DNA of 33,718 bases from Basidioascus undulatus (taxonomy: Eukaryota). The stretch is from NCBI GenBank assembly GCA_000826855.1, contig JTLS01000082.1:1-33718 (forward strand). Direction: 5' to 3'. Positions within the stretch are counted from its first letter, which is position 1, and every line of letters begins with the position of its first letter. Shown here one piece after another: positions 1 through 30,809 of this stretch. A model generated the notes under the pieces. It worked only from the letters and a program-made list of their open reading frames with translations. It made no database searches and was not told the DNA's origin. Position numbers and translations under genes: made by a program.

Positions 1-2698
1 GGCGGGGAAGGGCTTGACCGGGGGTAGCGGCACCTCGCCGTCGAGCTCGACGCTCGTGCGCGCGGACGAGCTGGAGGTCGGGGCCGCCTCGCTCAGAAGC
101 GTCGCCGCAGTCGAAACGGATGCGGAGGTATTGCTGGACGCATCGCGCGACATCGCCTGCCCGCCCTGCAGCCCGAGCTCGCGGAGTGCGGCCGCGCGCG
201 CGGAGGCCATGGGGATGGGGACATCGAGGGGGCTGTGCGGCAGGGGCGTGGAGCTGGCGATGGCGAGAGTCGCTGCGCGGGCGCGGGAGGAGGTGCGGAA
301 TGGGGAAGGGCCGGGAGAGGGCGTGACGGTGCGGAGGGAGTCGATGGAGAGTGGGGTGTCCGAGCGCGATCCGGGCAGGCCAGTCTCGTCCTCGTCGCGC
401 AGCCGGATCGCGCCAACCGCCGCGAGCTCCTCCTCTTCCTCCTCGTCCTCCGTGTCGTCCAGCTCCCCCAACTCCGCGACGTCCAGCACGCCGTCCTGCT
501 CGTACTTCTCCTTGAGGCAACTCAAGCTCGTCGCCTTGCGCCCGAGGAAGCTGAGCGTGTGCTTGCCGCGCCTCGTGCCGCGGCCCTGCGACTCGTCGAG
601 CGACGCCTCGCGCAAGCCCGCCGGGCCGCCCGTGAAGAGGATGTCCACGCCTTGCTCGCCCGACTTGATCGCGAGGCTCAAGCGTACACCCGCGACGCAC
701 TCAACGCCCGCGCGGTGGATGTCCGTCGCGGCGCGCAGTAGGCGCTGCTTGTCCGCGTCCTCCTCCTCATGCGCCGACTCGTCCGCGGCGAGGACCGCGC
801 GCGCAGCGGTAACTAGGGCGGTCGTCGCGACGTAGAGCTTCTCCCTGCCTTGCTCGAGCATGGCGATCTCCCGCGCGCGCTGCGTGCGGAGCGCCGCGTG
901 ACCTAGGACAGCCTCGACGACGGCGATGAGCTCGCGGACGCGGAAGACCGTCTCGCGTGTCATGTCGATGAGGTGGACGGTCGAGCTCGGGTGGCTGACG
1001 GTGGTGTGAGAATGCACGTGGCCGATGAAGGCCGCGACAATGCTGAGGAGCGAGTCGTGCGTGCCGCCGAGCGAGCGGAGGACGTCTGCAGCGTGGCGCG
1101 AGTGCGGGACGCCTGGCGTGCGCGGGCCGCCCGTGCTATCGGACGAGTCGGAGGACGTGTTGGACGCGAAGGAGTGTGGGCGCGAGGTCGGATACCGTCC
1201 GTGGGGGTAGGGGTGGCTGCTGCCCGGCATGAGCGGCGCGTACGAGCTGGAGGAGGACGTGGAGTCGACGGAGAACTTGCGCCCGTTGTGAGGTGGAGAG
1301 GACGGGGAGGAGAACGTCGAGGTGGTGGATACTGTGGAGACGCTGAACTTGCGGGCGCCCGTACGAGCGACTGAGTCGGAGCGAACCCGAGAGCGGAGGT
1401 CGGAGATGCTCTTCGAGCGGTCGGCGGTGCGGGGGAGGCCCGACGCGCGTTGGATGGGGGATTCGGGTTGCAAGGGGGGTCCGAAGAGCGAATCGGGCGT
1501 CTGGCGACCCATGAAACTCGAAGCTTGGCTGTTCGGCCTCGGCGTCCGCTCCTCCCACTCTCCACGACTCGGCATGGGCGTGCGGTCTGGCTCGACCTCG
1601 TCCTCGTACGACTCGCCCAGCGGGCCCTCTTCGATCTGACGTCCGCTCGACCGCCTCCGATCCGGCAGGCTTATCCCGCACTCCCTCGCTACGGCCAAGA
1701 ACCTCCGCACGTTGCTGAGCACGCCCGCGGCGAGACGCAACATCGCGTCCATCTCGGCGTCGCGCGTCTCCTCATCCTCCAACTCGCCCGACGCGAGACG
1801 CGCCTGGGCGACGAGGCGCGAGAGCTCGGAGAGGATGAGCTTGCGTTCGCGGGCGAGGGAGGGGAAGCGCTTGAGCGGCGGCGACTCGCGCGTGAGGCAG
1901 TCGGTCGCGGAGAGGACGGAGCGGACGGAGGAGATGACGCAGGCAGTTGAGGGCTGGAAGTGGGTGATGCGGCGGCTTCGCACGGCGCTCTGGAGGAGGG
2001 CGAGCGCGTGCAGGATGGGCTCCATGATGGGCGAGACGGCGCTCGCGCTCGTACTTGCGCTCGCGCTGGAGTACAAGCTCGCGGTGGGCGAAGCGGGCGC
2101 GAGGTAGAGCGAGGCGGGGTTCGGGGGAGATGAGGGCGAGAGCGAGGTCGCGGTCGAAGCGGCGACCGACGCGCCGTAGAGGCGGACGTTTGAGGAGCGA
2201 CGGGAGAGCACAGGCGACGGAGACTGCGAAGATCGAAGATGCAATATCGAAGCGTCAGCGGAAATGAAAACGGCAAAACAGCAAGCGCGCAGCGCGCCAG
2301 GCACATGACGACAGGAACCCCACGGAACGTCCACCAACGGGCCGTCCTGCCCACCGTCCGCGCCTTGTGCAACGCTTGCGCGGGGACCCCAGACCGGCTG
2401 CAGTGCCAAATGATACCCAGTCCCGAACCCATATTCCCGGATCGCCAGCAAATTTCGACTCGGGAACGAGGAGACCCACCCTGCTCGAATTGGTCTCCAG
2501 CGTTGTCACGTAGTTCATGGGCAACCAGCCGCGGTGGCCATCCACCTCGCCATCCCACCATCCCGACGCATCCTGATTGTAGACCTTGATGATCTGCCCG
2601 GCGCGGAGCGAGAGGCAGGTCGTGTTGCCGGACTGCGGCTCGAAGTCGTGCAGCGCCTGGACGAAGATGGTGTCGTGGAGGGGTGAGGGCGGGCGCAT
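1..2698 (-). CDS. SH3-domain Ras guanine-nucleotide exchange factor (Cdc25/Bud5-like), 5' part; continues beyond the left edge of the window
   Basis: Exon 1 (2698-2480) encodes an SH3 domain: FVQALHDFEPQ...LSLRAGQIIKVYNQDASGWWDGEVDGHRGWLPMNYV. Intron 2479-2224 has a GTGGGT donor, CTGAC branch and GCAG acceptor. Exon 2 from 2223 reads open in the stretches translated toward position 1, including MEPILHALALLQSAVRSRRITHFQPSTACVISSVRSVLSATDCLTRES, a segment I recognise from fungal SH3-RasGEFs. The catalytic domain is not in the window, so the GEF call is by family recognition. Confidence 0.8.
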
Positions 2699-2816
2699 GG
2701 TGGTCAACAGTCGAGTTGGAGGAGTGGGGGCTGGGGAGGGAGTGGGAGTGGGAGAGCGCGAGCGCGTGATGTTGGTGTGCTGGATGAATGGGATGCCGGA
2801 GATGGCGGTGATGGGG

Positions 2817-2905
2817 CTGTAGGTGAAATGCGAGGATCGCTCGTCAGCTGGCTGTGACGCTCGCTCGTCCTCCGACACGGACGGGAAAGATCAGGAGCAA
2901 CTTAC
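2817..2905 (-). other. Putative 5'-UTR intron of the SH3-RasGEF gene
   Basis: Minus strand shows a GTAAGT donor at 2905-2900, a GCTGAC branch near 2845 and an ACAG acceptor ending at 2817, upstream of the ATG at 2698. Confidence 0.55.
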
Positions 2906-5548
2906 TTGGGCCGGAGTGGGAATGGCGGTGTCTGGCCGAAGAGAGAAGAGCAAGACTTGTCGCGGGGACCTGCCCTGGACGCGTGCTCGTTCGCCTAGGT
3001 GTGGTCGATTGGGTAGGGAGAGAAAAGGGGGAAACGAACGGGGAGATTGTCGGTAAAGTATAGCAAGAATGACCGGCCTGTAGACACTCCCCGGAGTGAG
3101 AACGAGAGCGGCTACAACCGTCAGCCTGGCGCGGTGGTGGGGGGAGGACAAGGCGCGTACATACGCACCGCACCCGAAGGCTGTCCAGTCCAGTCCAGTC
3201 CAGCGTTCCCGCGCGCGCGCAGGGGGTGTCCGTGCGAGGTGCGACGGCAGGGGAGGTTCGCCGCGCTAGGCTGTCTGGCAAACGGGGGCTGCGGGCGCTG
3301 ATCCCGCGTCGGTCAAATGAAATGCTCCGCACTAGCGGCTGCGCCTTGGCCGCTCGGAGTCGGGCGTAGGTGTTGCCGGCGGAGGGGGGGAGATGGGGAT
3401 CGCGCGCTCGTCGACGAGGAGGTGGTGGTCGATGATAAACAGGCGAAAGCAGGCCCACAGCGAGGCGGGAAGGGGAGCCGTTGTGGCTGGAGGCCGGGCT
3501 GGCTGGCAAGTGAATGGGACACACGCGTCAGCACGCGACGCGAATCGCTCTCCTGCGAATTGAGTTAAAAGCGCGCACATCTCGAGGAATGCCGCACGCC
3601 AGGCACGCACGCCAGGCATAGAATGGAACGGGCCCAACAAACAAACAATACACACTGACACACTGACCTATCCCAACGGCGACCACGACGAGCGCAACAG
3701 CGAGCAAGACGTGGACGATGAGCGTGGCAGGGCGGCCAATGTGCGAAAAATCCCAGGCCACCAATTAGCAGGCCGAACTTCGCGGCGGCAACACTAATAT
3801 CACTGAGGGTCGACAGCATTCCAATGTCTTGCATGGATTGCGCAGTGCTGCACCTTCATTTCTTGCGAGCCACGCTCACAGCCAGTTAATGAAGATTTGT
3901 ATTACGCCATTGAATGCCTCTCTTCCAGGCCACTCTCAGACTACACTCCAAGCCAAGTGGATACAGCTCCCTGATGGCGACCCCAAATACCTCCGCACCA
4001 AGTCCGAAGTTCCACAAGCAGCGTAGCGTACAGCCCTTCCGGTCAAGTTGCGTCCGGCGGGCAACACTCCTCCTGTACCACGCTCATAGCCAACGTAAAG
4101 TGACAACTGCAAGATTGAATGCTTTCACACAAAACGCATTTACAATGTCGACGGTGATGGACAATGGACAATAATCAGCGCGCAGTCGCTCATGCACCAT
4201 GTCCGTGCCCCGCCCCTCACTGCCGCCCAATTCGAGTCGTCTTCAAGTGTTGTTCTTTCTGTATCCGCTGCAGGACCTCCTCAGGGGCCCACATTAATCC
4301 ATCGCGTACACCCAGTTCCGGGCGCCCATCTCACCGAGTCCACGGGCCTGGGACCTCCATCCCTGTGAACAACTGCGGCCCAGCTCTCATATGGCGAGCA
4401 CACTGCTCAGTGCCCATGTTAACTTTTCCCTCTTGCGTAACTACCCACGGGTAAGGTTGAGTACAGGGCGCTGGATCTTAAAACAGCCCAACCCATCACT
4501 AGCGTTTCACTCCGACATTCGCCTCTTCTTCAACTTCGACCCAACGAGGGCTCGGGCCCTCCCCCGCTCCCCGCGCGTCGACGTCGAAGTACGAACAGGT
4601 CCTGGATCCGGAACCTTGTTGAATGGATATTAGCCTTAATTATGGGGTGGATGGTAGGTGAACAAGTTGGTGTTTTGGTTGTTTGATAGGGGTGAGTGGG
4701 GGGATAGGGGGACGATGCAATGCGGCGGGGGCATGTTGCGAGGAAGTTGGCGAGAGGAGTGTACGATGGACCGAGGACGAGGAGAAGGCATGGAGGTGGA
4801 GTACCGAACTGGGAGAATGTAACGAGGGGAATTGAGGAGGACGAGAATGTATTCGTTAGGGGTGCTCGGGAGCACAAGAAGACGGGGGGATGTCAGACGG
4901 CCGTTGAAGGTGCTTGCAGCGTTTTCAGAACGCCGGAAGTCCACGCTGTGCCTCGCTCGCTAGGACTTCTTGGATCTATAAAGCCTCTGTAAAGCGTCGA
5001 AATACATCGGTGTAATGCACATCCCTGATATCTGAAAATGAGCTCAACCTCCCGGTAGTGAGCTGCTAGCAGCTACGCGGCCCTCCGGGACGCTGAGTGC
5101 CAGTGAAAGCTGCATCGCGGCCCAATATCAATGTAGCTGACCGTCCGAAAGCATGTCACTCTCTAACGAATTTCAAGCTTTGTAGTATCTTTAGCCCAAT
5201 AGAGCAACCGTGGGTTTTCTCACCGCCGCGTTCTACGGTAAATACAGACTGCCAGCAGGGCACCTGCCTGCATCAGGATGCCGCGTCGTCTCTTAGTATC
5301 ACCGGTAACGGTCCCGCATATCTCTGTTTTGGATGTTTCTGGAGATGTCTGTGGAGGACTTCATCCCCAAGCCATGCGTTGTGAAGCGCTGCTGTGTCCC
5401 GAGCCGCCGCACAGTCATCGTAGCACCCGAATTGCACCAGCTTGCGTGTACATCCCCTAATACAACAACAGAAACAACAACACCGTGCCTCATCCACCTT
5501 CTTCTTTCCGCGCACAACACATCGCGCACCTCCTCTCCCTTCCATCCC

Positions 5549-6754: not shown

Positions 6755-7941
6755 GATCGGAGGAATGTGGATGGGGAGAAAGATTAGTGAATGTGGGTGG
6801 ATATGGGGCTGATGGATGATGGGAACGCGGATGAGGATGGCAAGGCGCGAAGACGATGGTCGATGACTGAAAGGGATAAGGATGTTCCCACCGAGCTCGA
6901 GTCTCACCCCTCCTAGCATATGGCGTTCGCGTGATCGTCCGCTCGCTGCTGACGCCACTCTGACTCTGCAAGTTCGTCTTTCGCACATGCGCACGCTTCT
7001 TACTTTCGTAAGCGTATCTTGACGACGCTATCAGATACATGAGAATCTTCAGATGTATTAACAAAGGGAAGCGAGCATGCCGCAGACGAGACGCAGCTAT
7101 CATGCTTGACAGCGACAGCGACAGGTCGATGATAAGAGCGATAAGGGGCGTGGGAAAGTGCCACAGCCCAACGAGACGTTCTCCTGCAGCGGACGGACAC
7201 GTAGTATGCTCTCGTATTCACAAAAGAAAATGAATTTTGGCACGGTACAGTAGTTTTCAAGTGGGGATGCGGGGGGAAAGCGCTCCCGGTTTCCACCCTG
7301 GCTTGCAGTATTGGACAAGAGAACAAGGCGCCTGCAAACGTCGATCGGCCTTCCACAGCCCGAACAATTGCACTTGTGCCGTTGGATCAACAATAATTGA
7401 AGTTAGGAGCATATTCCTTTGTGTCAAATGGGCTGTGGTGGTAGCATACGATTCCTATCCCTGTCTGAGCGTTGCTCGCCGCCACAGAGTGTTCCGGCTA
7501 GGACGATACTGCTGAAGTGCAGCTTCTGATACAGGTCTATATAATGGTAATTTTTTTCTCTTAAGATTTGATTCATAGATATCAGCATATTTCACATAAA
7601 CGGAGTCGCGAGACGAGTCCTCGGAATGCCGAACCCGTTCTGCTTCAACGACACGTTCGCAGTCGAGGTGGAGCTAGGCTTTTTCACCAGCCCGTTGGGC
7701 AAAACATAGGTCCATGAGATCAGCGTGTCAAGAAAGATTGACTCACACTCTGCCATCCTCAGTTCCGTCTTTCAGCAGCCGAGTTGCAATGTGTGTGTCT
7801 CGAAAAGAGGCTCTCAGAAGATAGAAAAGGTCGTGATCGCCCATAAATTTCCTCCAGCCCTTTGTACTATGATCTTTGTCCCATTCGATTATGACTGATT
7901 CGACGGCTGAAGGAGCGTTCCGTCACTCAGGCTATTCGCCG

Positions 7942-9008
7942 ATGTTCCGACAATCCGTCTTCCCTTCTCCCCAACACCTCGCCTTCTTCTCTTCGAACTG
8001 ACGGCGTCTTCATACTCTCGTCGATTCGCCAGAGACCAAGGCTGCCCGAGCAGCTCTCAGCACCAGCGTACGCATACCAGCGCTTCTCGCAGCGGCGTCT
8101 GCCCTTCGAAACGGCGTCGTTTGTCGCCTGTCAAAAGCGTAGAGCGCTCGCCAGAGTACAGCCTCTTCAGCGCTGTCTACTGCCTCGTCTTCACCGACCA
8201 CATCCGCTGGGCAGCCAAGTTCTCGCTCGGGCTCGAAAAGACTCAGAACGTGGAGAACCACTCTCCGGAGGACATGGCTGCGGAGGTGTCGTTCCTGCGC
8301 TATGCTGAGCGGGCGCTGCCGGGGCTGCCTGTGCCGCGGGTGCACGCGTACAAGCCGGAGGGGCGGGAGGTCGGAGCGGGGTATGTTTTGATGGACTGGG
8401 TGGGGGACAAACATGTCAACTGGAGAAAGGAGGAGCTTCCGCTAGAGACGCGCCGGAAGATCGTCGATCAGCTCGCAGAATTCCTCATTGAGCTTGTCTA
8501 CGGCACCAACCGGCCTCTGTCCGCGTCCGCCTGCCTGACGTAGGATATGGACGGCCGTATCCTCCGCCGCTGCAGAGGGCGCGGACCGACCGGCTTCGAC
8601 CTGCACGACTTCCTCATCCTCCGCGCGCTGCTAGGCGAAACCATACCGCCAGAGCTCGGGCCCTTTCCCCGTCCTGCAGAACGACTCCACTACGGGAACG
8701 TGTTTTGGAACAAGAGCCAGGCAAGTTTCGGCGCTTTCATGATCTCCATCGCCCGTCCATCTTCGCCCAATTGAACCCATTCAATGACCTCCTCATTTCC
8801 GTTCCCCCACCCATCCTTTCTGCTCCTCACTCCCGCTAATTGCCGCGACGCATGTGCAAGGGCGCAGCTCGGCGCTCGTCAAAGAGTCAAAGAGCAGGTC
8901 GCGGTGGTGATGCTCGACATCTGGGGCGACGGCACGAGGGATGGGTTGGATGTGAATGTAGAGGGGGGAGAGTCGATGAGGGGCAGGAGCCGAAGAATGC
9001 GGATGTGA
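7942..9008 (+). pseudogene. APH/protein-kinase-like phosphotransferase pseudogene
   Basis: Motifs IPALLAAASALRNGVVC, LVFTDHIRWAAKF, EVSFLRY, LPVPRVHAY, GYVLMDWV and RKIVDQLAEFL resemble fungal APH-like kinases. Lesions: in-frame TGA 7999-8001, frameshift ~8130-8140, TAG 8541-8543, and a scrambled catalytic loop near 8665-8700. The 3' end is approximate. Confidence 0.75.
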
Positions 9009-23260: not shown

Positions 23261-24017
23261 GATACCCTGCCTGCAAAAGGTGCGAAGAGAAGTCAAGCGA
23301 AGGGAAATCAAGGCGTAATGTGAAGAGGCGGCTCGACTACTCAAACGCGGCCCCTGCCGCGCTGACAGCTCCGCCGGCCAGAAATACGCGAAGGGTCTGC
23401 GGCAAAAATTGCGTATTTTCTGGACGTGCTGCTCGAAGAGCAGTGCATATTGAAAGAGGAGCAGAGAAATGCGGTTGAGCACATAAAAGCTTACCTCGAC
23501 AGTGTTGAACGTCAAGACAGCAGACATGCAACGAGCGGAGTGCTGCGGGCTGCCAAAGCAAGCCCACTTCGCGCCCGGAGGCCCACTGATAGCGTCGACG
23601 AAGAATACTCGCCCTTCCCAAACAACTGAATGTCAATCAAAACAACGAGGCTGCTGCCAACTGAGAAAACATAGCAAAACCGCTGCATTGTAGCAAACGA
23701 ACAGACTCTAGGAACGCGCAATAAAGCTAATAGAACGCGATCGAGCAGCGAAGGAATATCGTCGTAGGTTGGTTTTTGTTTTTGTAACATAAACATCAAC
23801 ATGGAGGAGTAAAGTACGCTGAGTGAAGTCGTGAGAGAGAGAGAGGGAGAGATGCGATAAGAAAGACATAGCAGATGCGAATGCGACCGGAAGTTAAGGC
23901 GAGACGAGAAGAATGCGACATGGCATGGCAAAGGACATGATGGGAAAGCGAAGATTGGGTGAAAGAAGAGAGACGGGACGCAGAGGGAGAGGAAAGAGGG
24001 CTAACACCGGGGTAGGT

Positions 24018-25578
24018 TTACTCCGGCGCGAACGAGTAGATGCGCACTTCGTGGTCGTCGCCGGCAGAGACGATGCGGTCTCCGCCGAGCTGGACGGCCG
24101 TGACGGCGCCGGCGTGGCCGACGAGCGTCGAGAGGCACTTGCCCGTGTCGCTGTCCCAGATCTGTGCGGGTGCAAGCGCGGTCAGTCCTATGTCGCGGCC
24201 CGCAAAGGGTAGATGAATATAAAAAGACCAAACTCACTTTGATCGTGCGGTCGTGTGAGGTCGAGACGATTCGGAGGCGGTCGGCATCGACGGCCCAGAC
24301 GCCCTCGATGTGTCCGAAGAGCGTCTTGGTGCACCGCCCCGTGGCGACGTCCCACTGCTTGATGGTGTTGTCGAGCGCGCCGGAGAGGAGCATGGGCACG
24401 GGGCCCGAGTCGAGGAGGTCGCTCGTCCTCGCCGAGTTGGGCGCGCGCTTGGGCGGGGAGCCCACAGGCAAGCTCGGCTGGTGGACGTACGAGCGCGCGA
24501 ACGTCGGCGTCTGGGGGACGAGGCCGTTCGCGTGCGGGTCACCAAACGTGAGCGGCGGTGCAGGGGTCCCGAATAACGGCCCGTCCTGCTGCATGAGCGC
24601 CTGCCCAGCGGCCTCGAAGCCGGGGTAGGAGGAGGAGGCGCCGAGCTGCTCGTTCGGGCTCGGCGTGGGCGCGGCGAAGACGCGCTCGGGCGGGCGCTCC
24701 TCGTCGTCGCAGCTGTTGGCGACCGTGGAGCGGTCGACCATGATGACCTTGATACACTGCACCTGCCCGACGTGGCCCTCGAAGACGCGCACGCACTCGC
24801 GCGTCGCGAGCGACCACAGCCGGATCGTCCCGTCGTCTGAGGCGGAGAAGAGCATCTTGGACGCTTCCAAGATCGGGTCGAGCTCGGGGTTCGATGAGCT
24901 CGGCGTGCAGCCGGTCGAGTTCTGCCCGTCCCAGAGCTGGACCGAGTTGACCCAGTCGCGGTGGCCGCGCAGCGTGAAGCAGTCGCCAGTCTTGAACCTG
25001 TGGCGGAGGAGTCAAGTCAGTCTCATTTTGCATTTGAGATACACCGTGAAGAAAGAAACACACCGCCAGACTTTGATTGTCGCATCAGCGGACCCGCTGG
25101 CGAGCACGGTCTTGTCGTAGTTGAGGCAAACGACGCCGTCCGAGTGCCCCTCGAGCGTGCGGATGCACTCGCCCGTTCGCCAATTCTGCACGCAGACATT
25201 TCTTCGTTAGCATGTGCGACAGCTGGAACCCTAGAAAGGGATCCGACGCACCCAAATCTTCAACGTCCGGTCCATGCTGCCCGTGATGAGCTTCGCCTCG
25301 TCGAACTGGAGCGCGCGGACGCCGCGTGTGTGCCCGCGCAGCACGTCGACCTGCTCGCCCGTGTCGAGGTTCCAGACGCGCGCGGTGCGGTCGTAGGAGC
25401 CGGTGATGAGGACAGGGAAGGGGTGGCTGTTCTCGTCGAACTGGAGGCACATCACGCCCTCGGTGTGGCCCGACAGCGTCCGGATCGTACATCGCCCGCG
25501 GCGCCAGTTGCGTTCGATGAGAAGGCGCTCGGTGTAGACGGCCTTCCAGGGGCGGGTGAGCGAGTGCGAGGGGCGTGA
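24018..25578 (-). pseudogene. MET30: WD40 half of the Met30/SconB F-box protein; N-terminus, F-box and promoter missing
   Basis: TRPWKAVYTERLLIERNWRRGRCTIRTLSGHTEGVMCLQF...LITGSYDRT...[28 protein letters not shown]...FTLRGHRDWVNSV...SASDDGTIRLW...LFGHIEGVWAVDAD...IYSFAPE* (TAA 24020-24018). Three in-phase introns and no internal lesion seen. It abuts NOP12 exon 4 directly. Confidence 0.88.
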
Positions 25579-27253
25579 GGGGGGGCGGCTTTGCAGCGCG
25601 AGAGACGCAGCTTGCGGTGCAACAGCTTGAGCTTTTCCTGAGGGAGGATGAGCAGCTCGTCGACTGAGTCGGTGTCCTGTCGTGCGCCACGCCGGGATCA
25701 GCATCTCTTGGCTCTGAAAAGGGACGCAAGACGCGAGGTGGAAGGAAGAGGGTAGGACGTACCACAAACAAAACATAGCCAAAGCCCTTCCCCATCTGCG
25801 TCGCCCCGTCGCGGATCAACCGGACGTCCTCGACCCATGCCTTCTTCCCCTCCGGCTGGCCCCTCTCCTCCACCACCAGCGCCTCAAAGAACGCGCGGAC
25901 GTCCTCCTCCTTCGCGGCGTAGTCCACCCCGCCCACGAAGAGCGAGCGCCTCGCGCGCTGGGGGTCGGTGTGCCACGCGACACGGGCCTTGCCCTCGACC
26001 TTGCCCGCCTTGGACGTGACGCGATCGACGCGGAGCGTGCGGCCCTCAAAGACCGTCCCGTGAGCGTTCTCCACGACCTTCGCAGCCACCTCCTCGGGGT
26101 GCCATGCGCCCTCCGGGGCGCCGGGGCGCGGGTGCGCGAGGACGACGTACGCGTTGACGGACCCCGCCTCCGCGTGCAGCTCGCCCTTGATGAACGCCGC
26201 CTTGCGCTTCTCCCGCGGGTTCTGGTACGTCTTCCCCTCCCGCAAAGCGACCTCGTCGCGGTAGCGCTTCGCGCGCTCCGCACCGTGCGTCGCCGCGGCG
26301 ACCGCGGCAGAGGCAGCGGCGGAGGATTTCTGAGAGGCGGAGGTGGGCACGGAGAAGGCGACGGAGCGGAAGCGGATGGACTCGTGCTTTGCGTGCGCGG
26401 ACGAGGGGAGTGTAGAGAGCAGGTGGCGGACGAGGGACTTGGTGAGGGACTGTGGGGTGGACCGACAGAGATGAGAATGAGGGAAGACGAGTAAGCGGGG
26501 AGGAGGAAACGCACCTTGGACTTGCATACCTCCACACCGACGTTCCCGACGAACACGGTCCGCGCATCGCGCTGCTCGGGCGTCTCGTCCGCGGGCACGA
26601 ACTTCTTCGCCTTTGTCTTCTCGTTCTTGTCGCCCTGCTTCTCCGCCGGCGCCTCCTCTTCGACCTCCTCCCCCTCGTTTCCCGCATCCACCAGCTCCTC
26701 GACCTCCTCCTCCTCGTCCGTGTCCAGATCCCGCCCAAGCTCCTTCGCGAACTCCTCCAGCGCGGCGTCGTCCACCTCGTCGTCGTCGTCGGCGTCAGCA
26801 GCCGCAGCGGGCTTCGCCTTCTTGCTGGATGCGGGCGAGGCAATCGTCACCGCCTTGCGCTTCTTATCGGAAGACGGGGCAGCGGCCGGAGCGGCGGGTG
26901 CGGGGGTGGTGACGGCGGGCGGAGGGGGAAGTTTGGAGGGGCCGGCCTGCGGGTGAAGGGTCAGCCTCAGAGCGTACGGCGGCCTGGAGCGGCTTAGAAG
27001 ATGACCCGCCACGCACCGAGTGCTTGAAGATATCATCCAGCCCACTATCCTTCTCCGTCGCGACCCCAAACAAGAATCCCGACAGCGCCCCGCCGGCAGT
27101 CGCGCTCGCGGCCGGCGCGGGTGCAGCAGCAGGTTCAGCGGGTTCGGGAGCGGCCTTACCCTTCTTGTCCTTCTTGTCCTTTTTGGTCTTCTTGGAGGAC
27201 TTGTCCTTCTTGAACAACTTCGGCGGCTTAATGGGCGTGGTAGAGTCCGACAT
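25452..27253 (-). CDS. NOP12: Nucleolar two-RRM protein Nop12 (RBM34 family), apparently with its native C-terminal tail replaced
   Basis: Lys-rich N-terminus; ETPEQRDARTVFVGNV, ESIRFRSVAFS, KAAFIKGELH..SVNAYVV, FEGRTLRVD, RSLFVGGVDY, VRLIRDGATQMGKGFGYVLF|DTDSVDELL...KLRLSRCK. Exons 27253-27017, 26946-26515, 26449-25763, 25676-25452. The last ~42 codons are an alternative frame of the MET30 sequence. Confidence 0.9.
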
Positions 27254-28503
27254 GGCGATAAAGCGGCGGAGATGGGTTTGGGTAGCGGTCAAGCCGGGAA
27301 GCACAACTTTCTCGCGTGAAGGTGTAGTGATTCCCACGCACCATCCGCGGCCCGGGTAAGAATTCCGTGCAGACAAGAGCAAGGAGGAGGACGCACCACA
27401 CTTGATGCGCTGCAGGGATCCTGCAGAAACGAATACAAGTGATCGAAACTTTCTCCCGGATGCTGAAGTCCCCAAACCCTGCTGATGAAGTCCGTGGAGC
27501 TGGCGTTGGAAATCGTCGAACGTCGACGCTCGCAGTTATCACATCTTCACTGCGGCAGTCCGAGGAAGTATGTCGAGCATGAGAGTATGCCACAGGACAT
27601 TGATTGCAATTTAGTAGTATAATTCTTGTACAATCCCCCTACTTTCTGACAACGTTGCAAAAGGGGATATCGCGCATCCCAGGTGCTTCACACCTGCCGG
27701 GTGGAGGGGATCCGTCTGCCCAAAAGCAACATTTAAGCTTCCAAAGTCCTAACCATGCGCTATACAGGAGATCGACCACCATTCTTGTGAACCAAGAGCG
27801 GGTTACGGACGCCTATTTGTGCGCGTCCACCACAGACTGCCCTCGTGCCTGCAGCCTCCGTCCACACCCAAGCGATGGTGATCACGTCAAGATAAGAAGG
27901 ACCATTTGAAGATTCTCTTGGGATAGCAATTTGTCTTTAACACGACTTCTGACTTCAATTCTTGGGGTTGCTTGCAAACAAAGTGGACATGGTTGGAAAT
28001 TCCGCCGGCAGAGAGATTCAGAAGCGCCATGAAGGTGAGAATGTCGGCCTCTTCAAAGCACGCGGTGAGATTATCAACTTTCATGCTCGATATTCGGGGC
28101 AACCAGAAAGCGCAAAAGACTCATCATATTCTGACGGACGGATTGAGCCTTCGTGCGCCCGCGAGCCGGCCGGAGCGCTGGATCGCACAGCGCCAGCGCT
28201 TGCCAGGAACTTGTGGACGTATTGGTGGACGCGACACCTCATGCTCAAGAGCCGCACTGCTCCCAAACTGCAATTTGGTTCCGGACGCACCGCTCATGAC
28301 TGTCGGCCTTCATGGCAGGAGGATCTCGGCGGCAGGGCTGGGCTGATGGCCGCATTGTCGCCGAGGGCGCATGTTCCTCGCGCATATCCAACATCGTCGT
28401 CTTCCCGAATCCTATAAAGCAAAGAACCACGCTGATCTTTGACCCCCAGATACCCCTCCCACTAGCCACCCACATACCTCCGACTCTCCCTCAAAGCCTC
28501 ACA

Positions 28504-30110
28504 ATGCATATCCCCATTCTCCTCGCCCTCACCCTCGCTCTCACCCAGACCCTCGCTGCGCCCTCCCAAAAAAACTGCCCCTCCACCGCAATCGCCCCGA
28601 ATGGCGCAAGCTCCCGCACGCGCAGAAGGCGCGGTACATGTCCGCGCTGAAGTGCACGGTCAGCGCCCCCACGCTGGCGCTTGACGGTGTGCCGCAGGTC
28701 GGGCGGTACGAGGATTTCGTTTGGATTCACGAGTGGTTGGGGCAGACGATCCATTGGGTCGCAGAGGTCAGTGGTCTCTCTCTTGGTCGCTTTCCGTCAA
28801 AGGTATCGCTGACAACGTGGTGTGGAATGCTTCGCAGTTTCTGCCGTGGCACTGCGTGTAAGTCTTCACACCCCCCTCCGACCTGGCAAAGATCGACTCA
28901 CACCCTATGCTTTTTGTTCACGACAGCTTCCTCTACCTCTTTTACCAGGAGCTCAAGGCGTGCGGGTACGACGCGAGCTGCCGTACCAGGCATGGGACAG
29001 GGACTGGGAGGATCTCAGCCAGAGCCCTGTCTTCGGCCCCGACCCGGAGACGCAGTTTGGTTCGATCGACTACGACGATCCTTCGAAGCCTTTTAGTGAG
29101 CCCTGATATCTTTTCTAGGGCTCAATTTACGTCGCTGACAATGGCGGCGGTTTAACAGACGCGTCTGTGGTCCAGGATGGGGTGTTTGCGAATCACTTTA
29201 TCAACTTCCCGTGAGTTCTTGGCTTTAATCAGCTCTTGAAAGGAGGGAGAAACTGAAAAGGTTTTCGACAGCTTCCCTCATTATCTCGGACGCAACCTCG
29301 GCAGCACCCGGTCGGACACGCCGAATGACAACTGTACTTCTACGGCTAGTCGGTGTTGCCGCTGGTCTTTCTGCTCAACTACAACAACGATCTGACCATG
29401 CTCCTTTGACCGTACAGCAACACCACGGCTATGGAAAGAGTGCTCGCGCTCGACAACTTTGTCGACTTCAGCCAGAATCTTGAAGGTGCGGGCGCTCCGC
29501 AGCGATCGAGCGACCAACTCGTTCACGCAAACAAAGTGTTGAGTGTATGGAGCTTTCCGAATCAGGCTTCTTCGCCACAGAGCCCGGCTTCACCAACGCC
29601 GGTCCGCATGGGGCTATCCACGTCGTCTTCCGAGGAGACCACAGCACGGTCGGCCTCAATGTGTGACTTCTCCTCCCACCTCTTGTCACTTTCTCACCGG
29701 GTAGACTGATCACACAGAACTCAGCTCCCAACGACCCGCGCTTCTACCCTCGTGCGCATCACATATACCCCCGCACCTTTTACAGCTTCACTTACTTTTG
29801 TGTCCTACTCGCCAGACCACACCAACGTCGACCGGTTCTGGGTGACCTGGCAAGGCAGCAACGCGACTCGCCTGACCGACTACGGCGGGAACACCGAGTT
29901 CAACATGTCTGCAGGCCTGAGATATGGGCGTCCAGCGCAAATCAGAGACGATCTGACCTTTGCGGGGCTCACTACCGTGAAGGTAGTCGACGCGATGGAC
30001 ACAAAGTGAGTGGGCTGCGTTTGTGCGCGACGGATAGAGCGTTGGACGGGTGTGACCTGACGCCTCATGTACAAACTACAGAGCCTGGCCGTAGTGCTAC
30101 ACTTACTGGA
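28504..30110 (+). pseudogene. Secreted tyrosinase-like di-copper-centre protein pseudogene
   Basis: Signal peptide MHIPILLALTLALTQTLAAP. CuA region RYEDFVWIH...IHWVAE|FLPWH; CuB region GPHGAIHVV..SAPNDPRFYP|HHTNVDRFWVTWQ; terminal MDT..CYTY. Lesions: 1-nt deletions at ~28594 (I-R-PEWR) and ~28972 (GYD-G-ELPY), WHR changed to WHC, and TAG 30092-30094. Confidence 0.88.
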
Positions 30111-30264: not shown

Positions 30265-30809
30265 ATGCCAGCCGTGCTGGAAGGTCTTGATGCCTTTGAT
30301 CCTGCTCGATCTCCAGTCCTAACCGCCATCCCCTCCAATAAGCGGAACCCCACAGGAAGGCGGTGCACGCTCCGCTCGCTCTCGGCCGCCCGCGGCACGC
30401 AATTCCACCCCGAGTCTGAGGACGGTCAATCAACCGCAGCTCCCGCGCACCAAGTTCGCGATGGAGGAGACGATCCCTGTGCTCGGCAGGCTCATCAAGA
30501 ACAGGGTGCAGATCGAGGGATCGCAGACGGAGGACCGCGAGGGAAAGTGCTGCCTGTACGAGAGCATCGCGGTCAAGCAGGGTATTGCCATTTGGAAGTT
30601 TAGAGATCTTGAGGAGGTGGAAGGTGGGGAGGCGACGAAGTTGACGGAGAGGATCGAGGGACACTGTCCGGGATGGATGAGGTGGATCGTCGAGAGGGAG
30701 TGCAGGAGCGCGCATCTGTACGTGCTCAGTTTCAGCGTGGTCTTGCGTAGATGATGGACGGCAGGAGGGCAGAGCGCACATGGAGAAATACCATACGCTG
30801 TTTGAGTAG
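30265..30809 (+). pseudogene. DUF7053-like fungal protein with a disrupted or unresolved 5' end
   Basis: RTKFAMEETIPVLGRLIKNRVQIEG...LYES...GIAIWKFRDLEEVEGGEATKLTERIEGHCPGWMRWIVERE...AHL|AHMEKYHTLFE* (intron from GTACGT ~30718; TAG 30807-30809). Upstream frames do not join cleanly. Family assignment is from recall only. Confidence 0.5.

What the first reader, a model, noticed from the sequence alone, without database searches (positions are those of the whole stretch)
25452..25680. NOP12 runs directly into an F-box-less MET30/sconB at a C7 tract, one base out of frame
Seen: on the minus strand, NOP12 exon 4 reads ...KLRLSRCKAA (the end of RRM2). After GCC-GCCCCCCC-TCACGC (plus-strand G7, 25579-25585) the -1 frame reads SRPSHSLTRPWKAVYTERL, the segment that follows the F-box in Met30/SconB. 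There is no intergenic DNA, MET30 promoter, N-terminus or F-box, and no Lys-rich Nop12 tail. The NOP12 frame continues ~42 codons through MET30 sequence to TGA 25454-25452. One extra C, or a -1 slip on C-CCC-CCU, would give an in-frame Nop12(2xRRM)-WD40 fusion, and I see no lesions in either half. Known: Met30/SconB needs its F-box to bind Skp1 in the SCF ligase controlling sulfur metabolism, and MET30 is essential in S. cerevisiae. Inference: a recent multi-kb deletion between tandem genes, a true chimeric or frameshifted RRM-WD40 gene, or an assembly mis-join.
Basis: partly seen in the sequence, partly recalled or inferred. Interest (0 to 1): 0.8.

Follow-up and report, generated by a model that had tools for sequence, protein, structure and literature searches.

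The report
Assembly error joining NOP12 and MET30
The apparent fusion of two fungal genes is a genome-assembly mistake at a 21-base sequence that both genes happen to share; each gene is ordinary and its missing half lies on another contig.

Summary
The sequence is as described, but the junction is an assembly mis-join, not a gene. The window is contig C2790 of a 32-Mb, 2,992-contig basidiomycete assembly. The 'missing' MET30 N-terminus and F-box lie on contig C1410 and run off its end. The 'missing' NOP12 basic tail starts contig C2095, whose first 10 bases equal window 25569-25560, in frame with NOP12. In public contig sets of this DNA no record bridges the junction (0 of 4, 0 of 5 and 0 of 2 laid records in X1, X2, X3). 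The MET30 records run to 25580 and go on into other sequence. The X1 NOP12 record runs to 25560 and goes on into the C2095 tail. The overlap, 25560-25580, is a 21-bp sequence shared by both genes in different frames; the assembly crossed over there, where X2 depth is about half. Five of the seven C's belong to NOP12 only, so the C7 tract is not the junction and not a slip site into MET30. X3 contigs are spliced and carry each gene separately. Verdict: artefact (about 0.95), low interest; useful only as a quality flag for this assembly.

The parts
25560..25580 (.). 21-bp sequence shared by NOP12 (read PHAPRTR) and MET30 (read SRPSHS); the point where the assembly crosses from one locus to the other
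   Evidence: X1 record 1 fits up to 25580 and X1 record 2 fits from 25560, each running on into other sequence; frames; exact copy present once in G000
25579..25585 (-). C7 tract; Ala-Pro-Pro codons of NOP12. Only 25579-25580 are shared with MET30, whose own upstream sequence has no C run
   Evidence: loose end behind 25580 in X1, X2, X3
25560..27253 (-). NOP12, 5' part: exons 27253-27017, 26946-26515, 26449-25763, 25676-25560. Continues in G000:C2095 (in frame from its base 2, stop at 359-361)
   Evidence: homologues, RRM_1, three introns skipped by X3 record 11, C2095 overlap and frame, loose end equal to C2095:11-40
24018..25580 (-). MET30/sconB, 3' part (WD40 region): exons 25580-25252, 25185-25064, 24997-24238, 24161-24018. 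5' part with F-box on G000:C1410 (about 2926-3408 and 3515-3974); the linker between is not in the assembly
   Evidence: homologues, WD40, three introns skipped by X3 record 10, C1410 match, F-box PF00646 E 1.3e-11 and PF12937 E 7.8e-16, linker motif not found in G000
25452..25454 (-). TGA reached by the NOP12 frame only in the chimeric contig; not NOP12's real stop
   Evidence: the real stop is on C2095

Best explanation
Contig C2790 is chimeric. NOP12 and MET30 are two separate, intact, single-copy genes that share a chance 21-bp identity in GC-rich, Pro/Ser-rich linker-coding DNA. The assembler crossed from NOP12 into MET30 at this repeat (shown: the repeat, the non-bridging records, the orphan contigs) because read depth was low there and the true MET30 linker was not assembled (inferred). 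That left the NOP12 3' end as contig C2095 and the MET30 5' end as contig C1410. In the cell, Nop12 is a normal two-RRM protein of about 607 aa with a basic tail, and Met30 is a normal F-box/WD40 SCF substrate receptor (function from family knowledge, not tested).
For: C1410:3515-3973 matches Met30 residues 77-227 at 79% and ends at the contig end (3974); it was the strongest of 36 matches and the only one above 40% identity to the N-terminal half; it carries the F-box. C2095:59-355 matches the Nop12 tail. Its first 10 bases equal window 25569-25560, and the in-register frame is open for 119 codons to a stop. 0 of 4 (X1), 0 of 5 (X2) and 0 of 2 (X3) laid records bridge the junction. X1 record 2 leaves the window at 25560 into letters identical to C2095:11-40. 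X1, X2 and X3 leave at 25580 into the same other sequence, which by hand reads open in the MET30 frame for the 30 letters shown. X2 depth is 8.5 on the record at the junction against 17-19 on its neighbours. The distance from the RNP1 motif to KGDP is 75 aa across window plus C2095, against 68-150 (median 79) in the 56 of 102 homologues that have both motifs. About 300 exact matches of 21 bp or more are expected by chance in a genome of this size and GC. No fused form among homologues: 0 of 120 WD40 hits match NOP12 pieces, 0 of 102 NOP12 hits match MET30 pieces.
Against: Only contigs, not raw reads, were laid, and contigs drop rare variants. X1 and X3 are one sample, so two samples and two studies bear on the junction. 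X2's NOP12-side record stops inside the repeat (25577) and says nothing on that side. The link from C1410 to the window is inferred: the linker is absent from G000 and only 30 letters of the loose end were shown. C2095's first 10 bases also match window 15352 on the plus strand, so that overlap alone is weak; the X1 loose end is what ties it. Which run, if any, is the source of G000 is not known.
Confidence: 0.95

Rival explanations
1. A real reciprocal translocation at the 21-bp microhomology in the particular culture behind G000, giving NOP12-5'/MET30-3' (the window) and MET30-5'/NOP12-3' (C1410, gap, C2095).
For: G000 alone cannot exclude it: all four half-genes are present, the repeat is present once, and the MET30 linker is unassembled.
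Against: X1, X2 and X3, with 0-1 differing letters over the 3.6 kb laid, all carry the native MET30 continuation, and X1 carries the native NOP12 continuation. X1 and X2 are each flagged as a possible source of this DNA. It would break both single-copy genes at once; MET30 is essential in S. cerevisiae (recalled, not checked here for this fungus).
Confidence: 0.035
2. A real RRM-WD40 fusion gene expressed by a -1 frameshift on the C7 tract or by a homopolymer length variant.
For: In the window a -1 shift would indeed join the frames, and neither half has a lesion.
Against: No DNA record carries the junction. The spliced X3 records carry MET30 with its own upstream sequence and NOP12 with its own tail. 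No length variant was listed in table 4. No fused homologue among 222 proteins. C-CCC-CCU is not the usual X-XXY-YYZ site with Y = A or U (recalled).
Confidence: 0.005
3. A recent multi-kb deletion between tandem NOP12 and MET30 genes.
For: Both halves lie on the same strand in the window.
Against: The supposedly deleted DNA is in the same assembly. In X1 the genes are on separate records with 36,092 bases past the NOP12 side and 11,500 past the MET30 side, so they would be at least about 47 kb apart if the records do not overlap (non-overlap assumed).
Confidence: 0.01

Closest known systems
Met30 / SconB / Pof1 F-box-WD40 proteins (closest: Wallemia ichthyophaga P0100, 87%, and W. mellicola P0035, 86%, over the first WD40 exon)
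   Same: C1410 plus the window give the N-terminal region, F-box and WD40 region in the order of P0035 (residues 33-227, then the WD40 part to 690).
   Different: Nothing biological found; the gene is split over two contigs with an unassembled linker.
Nop12 (two-RRM nucleolar protein; closest Calocera cornea P0124, 48%)
   Same: Window plus C2095 give both RRM regions, the KGDP motif and the basic tail at the usual spacing.
   Different: Nothing biological found; the tail is on another contig.
Chimeric contig from a short-repeat mis-join in a short-read draft assembly (general knowledge; GC-rich and repeat-rich regions named as hard to assemble in the abstract opening of PMC7757076)
   Same: Shared short repeat at the junction, orphan contigs ending at or near it, lower depth, no bridging record in other assemblies.
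   Different: Here the repeat falls inside two coding exons on the same strand, so the error mimics a frameshifted gene fusion.

Membership tests
Assembly mis-join | Short sequence shared by both loci exactly at the junction | tested here: met
   21 bp, 25560-25580
Assembly mis-join | Displaced halves present on other contigs that end at the junction | tested here: met
   C2095 starts inside the repeat; C1410 ends inside the MET30 reading frame
Assembly mis-join | Other assemblies of the same DNA do not bridge the junction | tested here: met
   0 of 11 laid records of X1-X3; X4 has no depth in that bin
Assembly mis-join | No raw reads or read pairs span the junction | not testable with these tools
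   All four listed runs are kept as contigs
Met30/SconB | F-box N-terminal to the WD40 repeats | tested here: met
   F-box on C1410, WD40 in the window; that they are one gene is inferred from complementary coverage of P0035 and from 1,020 further letters in X3 record 10
Met30/SconB | Binds Skp1 and ubiquitylates sulfur-regulon factors | not tested
   Known for yeast Met30 (PMC11079001, abstract opening and passages)
Nop12 | RRM region followed by a KGDP motif and a basic tail | tested here: met
   RRM_1; tail 31% K+R, matching 53 of 102 homologues; spacing 75 aa
-1 programmed frameshift gene | Both frames lie on one real transcript | tested here: not met
   Spliced X3 records carry the two genes separately, each leaving the window sequence at or before the repeat
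-1 programmed frameshift gene | Downstream stimulatory RNA structure | not tested
   Not folded, since the downstream sequence is not native to NOP12

The most novel reading that the evidence does not exclude
The culture behind G000, or a minor part of its nuclei, carries a real microhomology-mediated rearrangement between NOP12 and MET30 at the 21-bp repeat, too rare to appear in the public contigs, and a -1 slip yields a Nop12 two-RRM/WD40 protein that brings the Met30 substrate-binding propeller to pre-rRNA.
Probability: 0.02. Interest if true: 0.6.

Novelty: not a real feature. Interest (0 to 1): 0.05.

Why it matters
Biologically it does not: both genes are ordinary. Practically, it shows that contig C2790 is chimeric at 25560-25580, so gene order across that point is false. 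Other apparent fusions, F-box losses or frameshifts in this 2,992-contig assembly need the same check before they are believed. How many more mis-joins it holds was not measured.

Tried and rejected
No RNA holder was listed by the run search; this is not used as evidence, and X3 proved to hold spliced contigs when laid. X4 (soil metagenome, share 0.06) gave only short pieces and no depth at the junction; not used. A 20-base motif of the native MET30 linker was not found in G000 with up to 1 mismatch; absence from an incomplete assembly shows little. Synteny test: the extra domains of the fused Wallemia annotations (PF01161 on P0100; PF00787 on P0129 and P0130) gave no tblastn match in the window, C1410 or C2095; uninformative. 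Earlier scan findings for this genome: none. A literature search for Nop12 with Met30 gave 1 paper, one mention of each, seen as a listing only (PMC4942948); no fusion is reported in that listing. The Nop12 and misassembly searches were seen as listings only. Structure and complex prediction were not run, because the fusion has no DNA support. A second MET30 copy was considered: one search showed one strong N-terminal match and one set of strong WD40 exons among 36 matches; the rest are weaker WD40 or F-box relatives at 24-47%.

Full report
Observation. The window is the whole of contig C2790 of G000, a 32,128,072-base assembly in 2,992 contigs. On the minus strand the NOP12 exon-4 frame reads through KLRLSRCKAA and on for 43 codons to TGA 25454-25452; the -1 frame reads SRPSHSLTRPWKAVYTERL into WD40 repeats; the plus strand has G7 at 25579-25585. 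Six G7/C7 runs besides this one and one C9 run occur in the window, so the tract is not unusual. The WD40 exon's closest listed relatives are basidiomycete Met30/SconB/Pof1 proteins: 110 of the 120 listed hits are at 65% identity or more, best 87% and 86% (Wallemia), and 107 of those 110 also match the F-box exon found on C1410; the other three are short, 402-438 aa. The upstream exon matches 102 proteins at 30-48%, mostly named Nop12 or RRM proteins where a name is given.

The missing halves are in the same assembly. Searching G000 with full-length Met30 (P0035) gave, as best of 36 matches, C1410:3515-3973 (residues 77-227, 79%) and also C1410:3277-3411 (residues 33-77); C1410 is 3,974 bases long, so the gene runs off its end in mid-frame. 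That exon holds an F-box (PF12937 E 7.8e-16, PF00646 E 1.3e-11). Searching with full-length Nop12 (P0136) gave 4 matches, three in the window and one at C2095:59-355. C2095 begins with 10 bases equal to window 25569-25560; in the frame in register with NOP12 it is open for 119 codons, includes KGDP and a tail of 31% Lys+Arg, and ends at a stop. The same 10 bases also match window 15352 on the plus strand, so this overlap needed independent support. The spacing from the RNP1 motif to KGDP is 75 aa, within the 68-150 (median 79) seen in the 56 of 102 homologues where both motifs were found.

Other assemblies do not contain the junction. Four public runs were listed for 23800-27400 and all four were laid. 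In X1, record 1 (28,973 bases, depth 41.7) fits 23800-25580 with no differences and then runs on into other sequence; record 2 (41,051 bases, depth 42.7) fits 25560-27400 with one difference and, beyond 25560, reads letters identical to the reverse complement of C2095:11-40. In X2, record 5 fits to 25580 and runs on 26 letters into the same other sequence; record 6 (517 bases, depth 8.5, against 17.1 and 19.1 for its neighbours) stops at 25577, inside the overlap. X3, filed as 'DNA?', skips six introns with CT..AC ends on the plus strand and so is transcript-derived: record 10 holds the four MET30 exons up to 25580 and 1,020 further letters that start with the same loose end; record 11 holds the four NOP12 exons down to 25596 and then 25 letters identical to C2095:314-338. 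No record bridges the junction: 0 of 4, 0 of 5 and 0 of 2 laid records. X4 has no depth there. X1 and X3 are one sample, so two samples in two studies bear on this; X1 and X2 are each flagged as a possible source of the DNA. If one is the source, the mis-join is shown directly; if neither is, near-identical DNA lacks the junction. Four pieces and seven loose ends were not shown in the output.

Mechanism. Records 1 and 2 of X1 overlap on the window at 25560-25580. This 21-bp stretch belongs to both genes: NOP12 reads it PHAPRTR, MET30 reads it SRPSHS. It is present once, exactly, in G000, as expected if two copies were collapsed. A simple base-composition estimate gives about 200-1,000 exact matches of 21 bp or more in a genome of this size at 55-65% GC, so the repeat needs no explanation. 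The local GC is about 0.7. The MET30 linker just upstream of the repeat was not found in G000. The likely course, inferred, is that the linker was poorly covered, the only path out of NOP12 exon 4 that the assembler kept led through the repeat into MET30, and C2095 and C1410 were left as orphans. The one-base frame offset is simply the different frame in which each gene uses the repeat. Five of the seven C's are NOP12's Ala-Pro-Pro codons; native MET30 has no C run there. By hand, the 30 loose letters shown are open in the MET30 frame.

Rivals. A frameshifted fusion has no DNA or RNA record behind it, and none of 222 homologues is fused (0 of 120 and 0 of 102; both searches were limited to proteins longer than 1.75 times the query and the first to its best 120 of 2,262 hits). 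A deletion between tandem genes conflicts with the presence of the 'deleted' DNA and with X1 records extending 11,500 and 36,092 bases beyond the junction on separate records. A reciprocal translocation in the culture behind G000 cannot be excluded from G000 alone, and contigs drop rare variants, but it would break both genes, and all three informative runs carry native MET30. I give it about 0.035.

Known context. The F-box forms the Skp1-binding surface, and SCF-Met30 ubiquitylates Met4 and Met32 in yeast (PMC11079001: abstract opening, passages). That MET30 is essential in S. cerevisiae and that Nop12 acts in large-subunit rRNA processing is recalled, not checked. One search for papers holding both Nop12 and Met30 listed a single paper with one mention of each. 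No supplements were read. No earlier scan notes exist for this genome.

Verdict. Not a real feature: a chimeric contig that mimics a frameshifted RRM-WD40 fusion. Interest 0.05.

Noticed in passing
window 25596 to G000:C2095:314 (X3 record 11): The NOP12 transcript contig jumps from 25596 to C2095:314, skipping 339 bases in frame across a shared CGCGC. By inspection no shift gives GT-AG or GC-AG ends and only 25 letters lie on the short side, so a template switch or contig-end artefact is more likely than splicing.
   Followed up: partly
run X3: Filed as 'DNA?' but its contigs skip six introns, so it is transcript-derived; it confirms the intron positions of both genes.
   Followed up: yes
window 1-2890, minus strand: SH3 domain plus DUF7783 in long frames running off the contig start; looks like the 5' part of a Cdc25-type Ras GEF (name recalled, not tested).
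   Followed up: partly
window 7911-8543, plus strand: Phosphotransferase (APH, PF01636) fragment, E 5e-07.
   Followed up: partly
window about 28490-29100, plus strand: Secreted-looking frame with an H-rich motif resembling fungal tyrosinases (recalled resemblance); no Pfam match for the frame scanned.
   Followed up: partly
window about 8100 and about 30500: If colinear, X1 record 1 would begin near 8108 and record 2 would end near 30518 (from coordinates).
   Followed up: no
G000:C1410:1-570: C1410 also starts in mid-gene, with GC-rich coding-like sequence and an apparent intron, a second break in GC-rich coding DNA; gene not identified.
   Followed up: no
P0100, P0129, P0130, P0166: Public Wallemia and Tremellales protein records fuse MET30 or NOP12 with a neighbouring gene's domains (PF01161; PF00787 and PF19566; PF15456), probably annotation merges.
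   Followed up: partly
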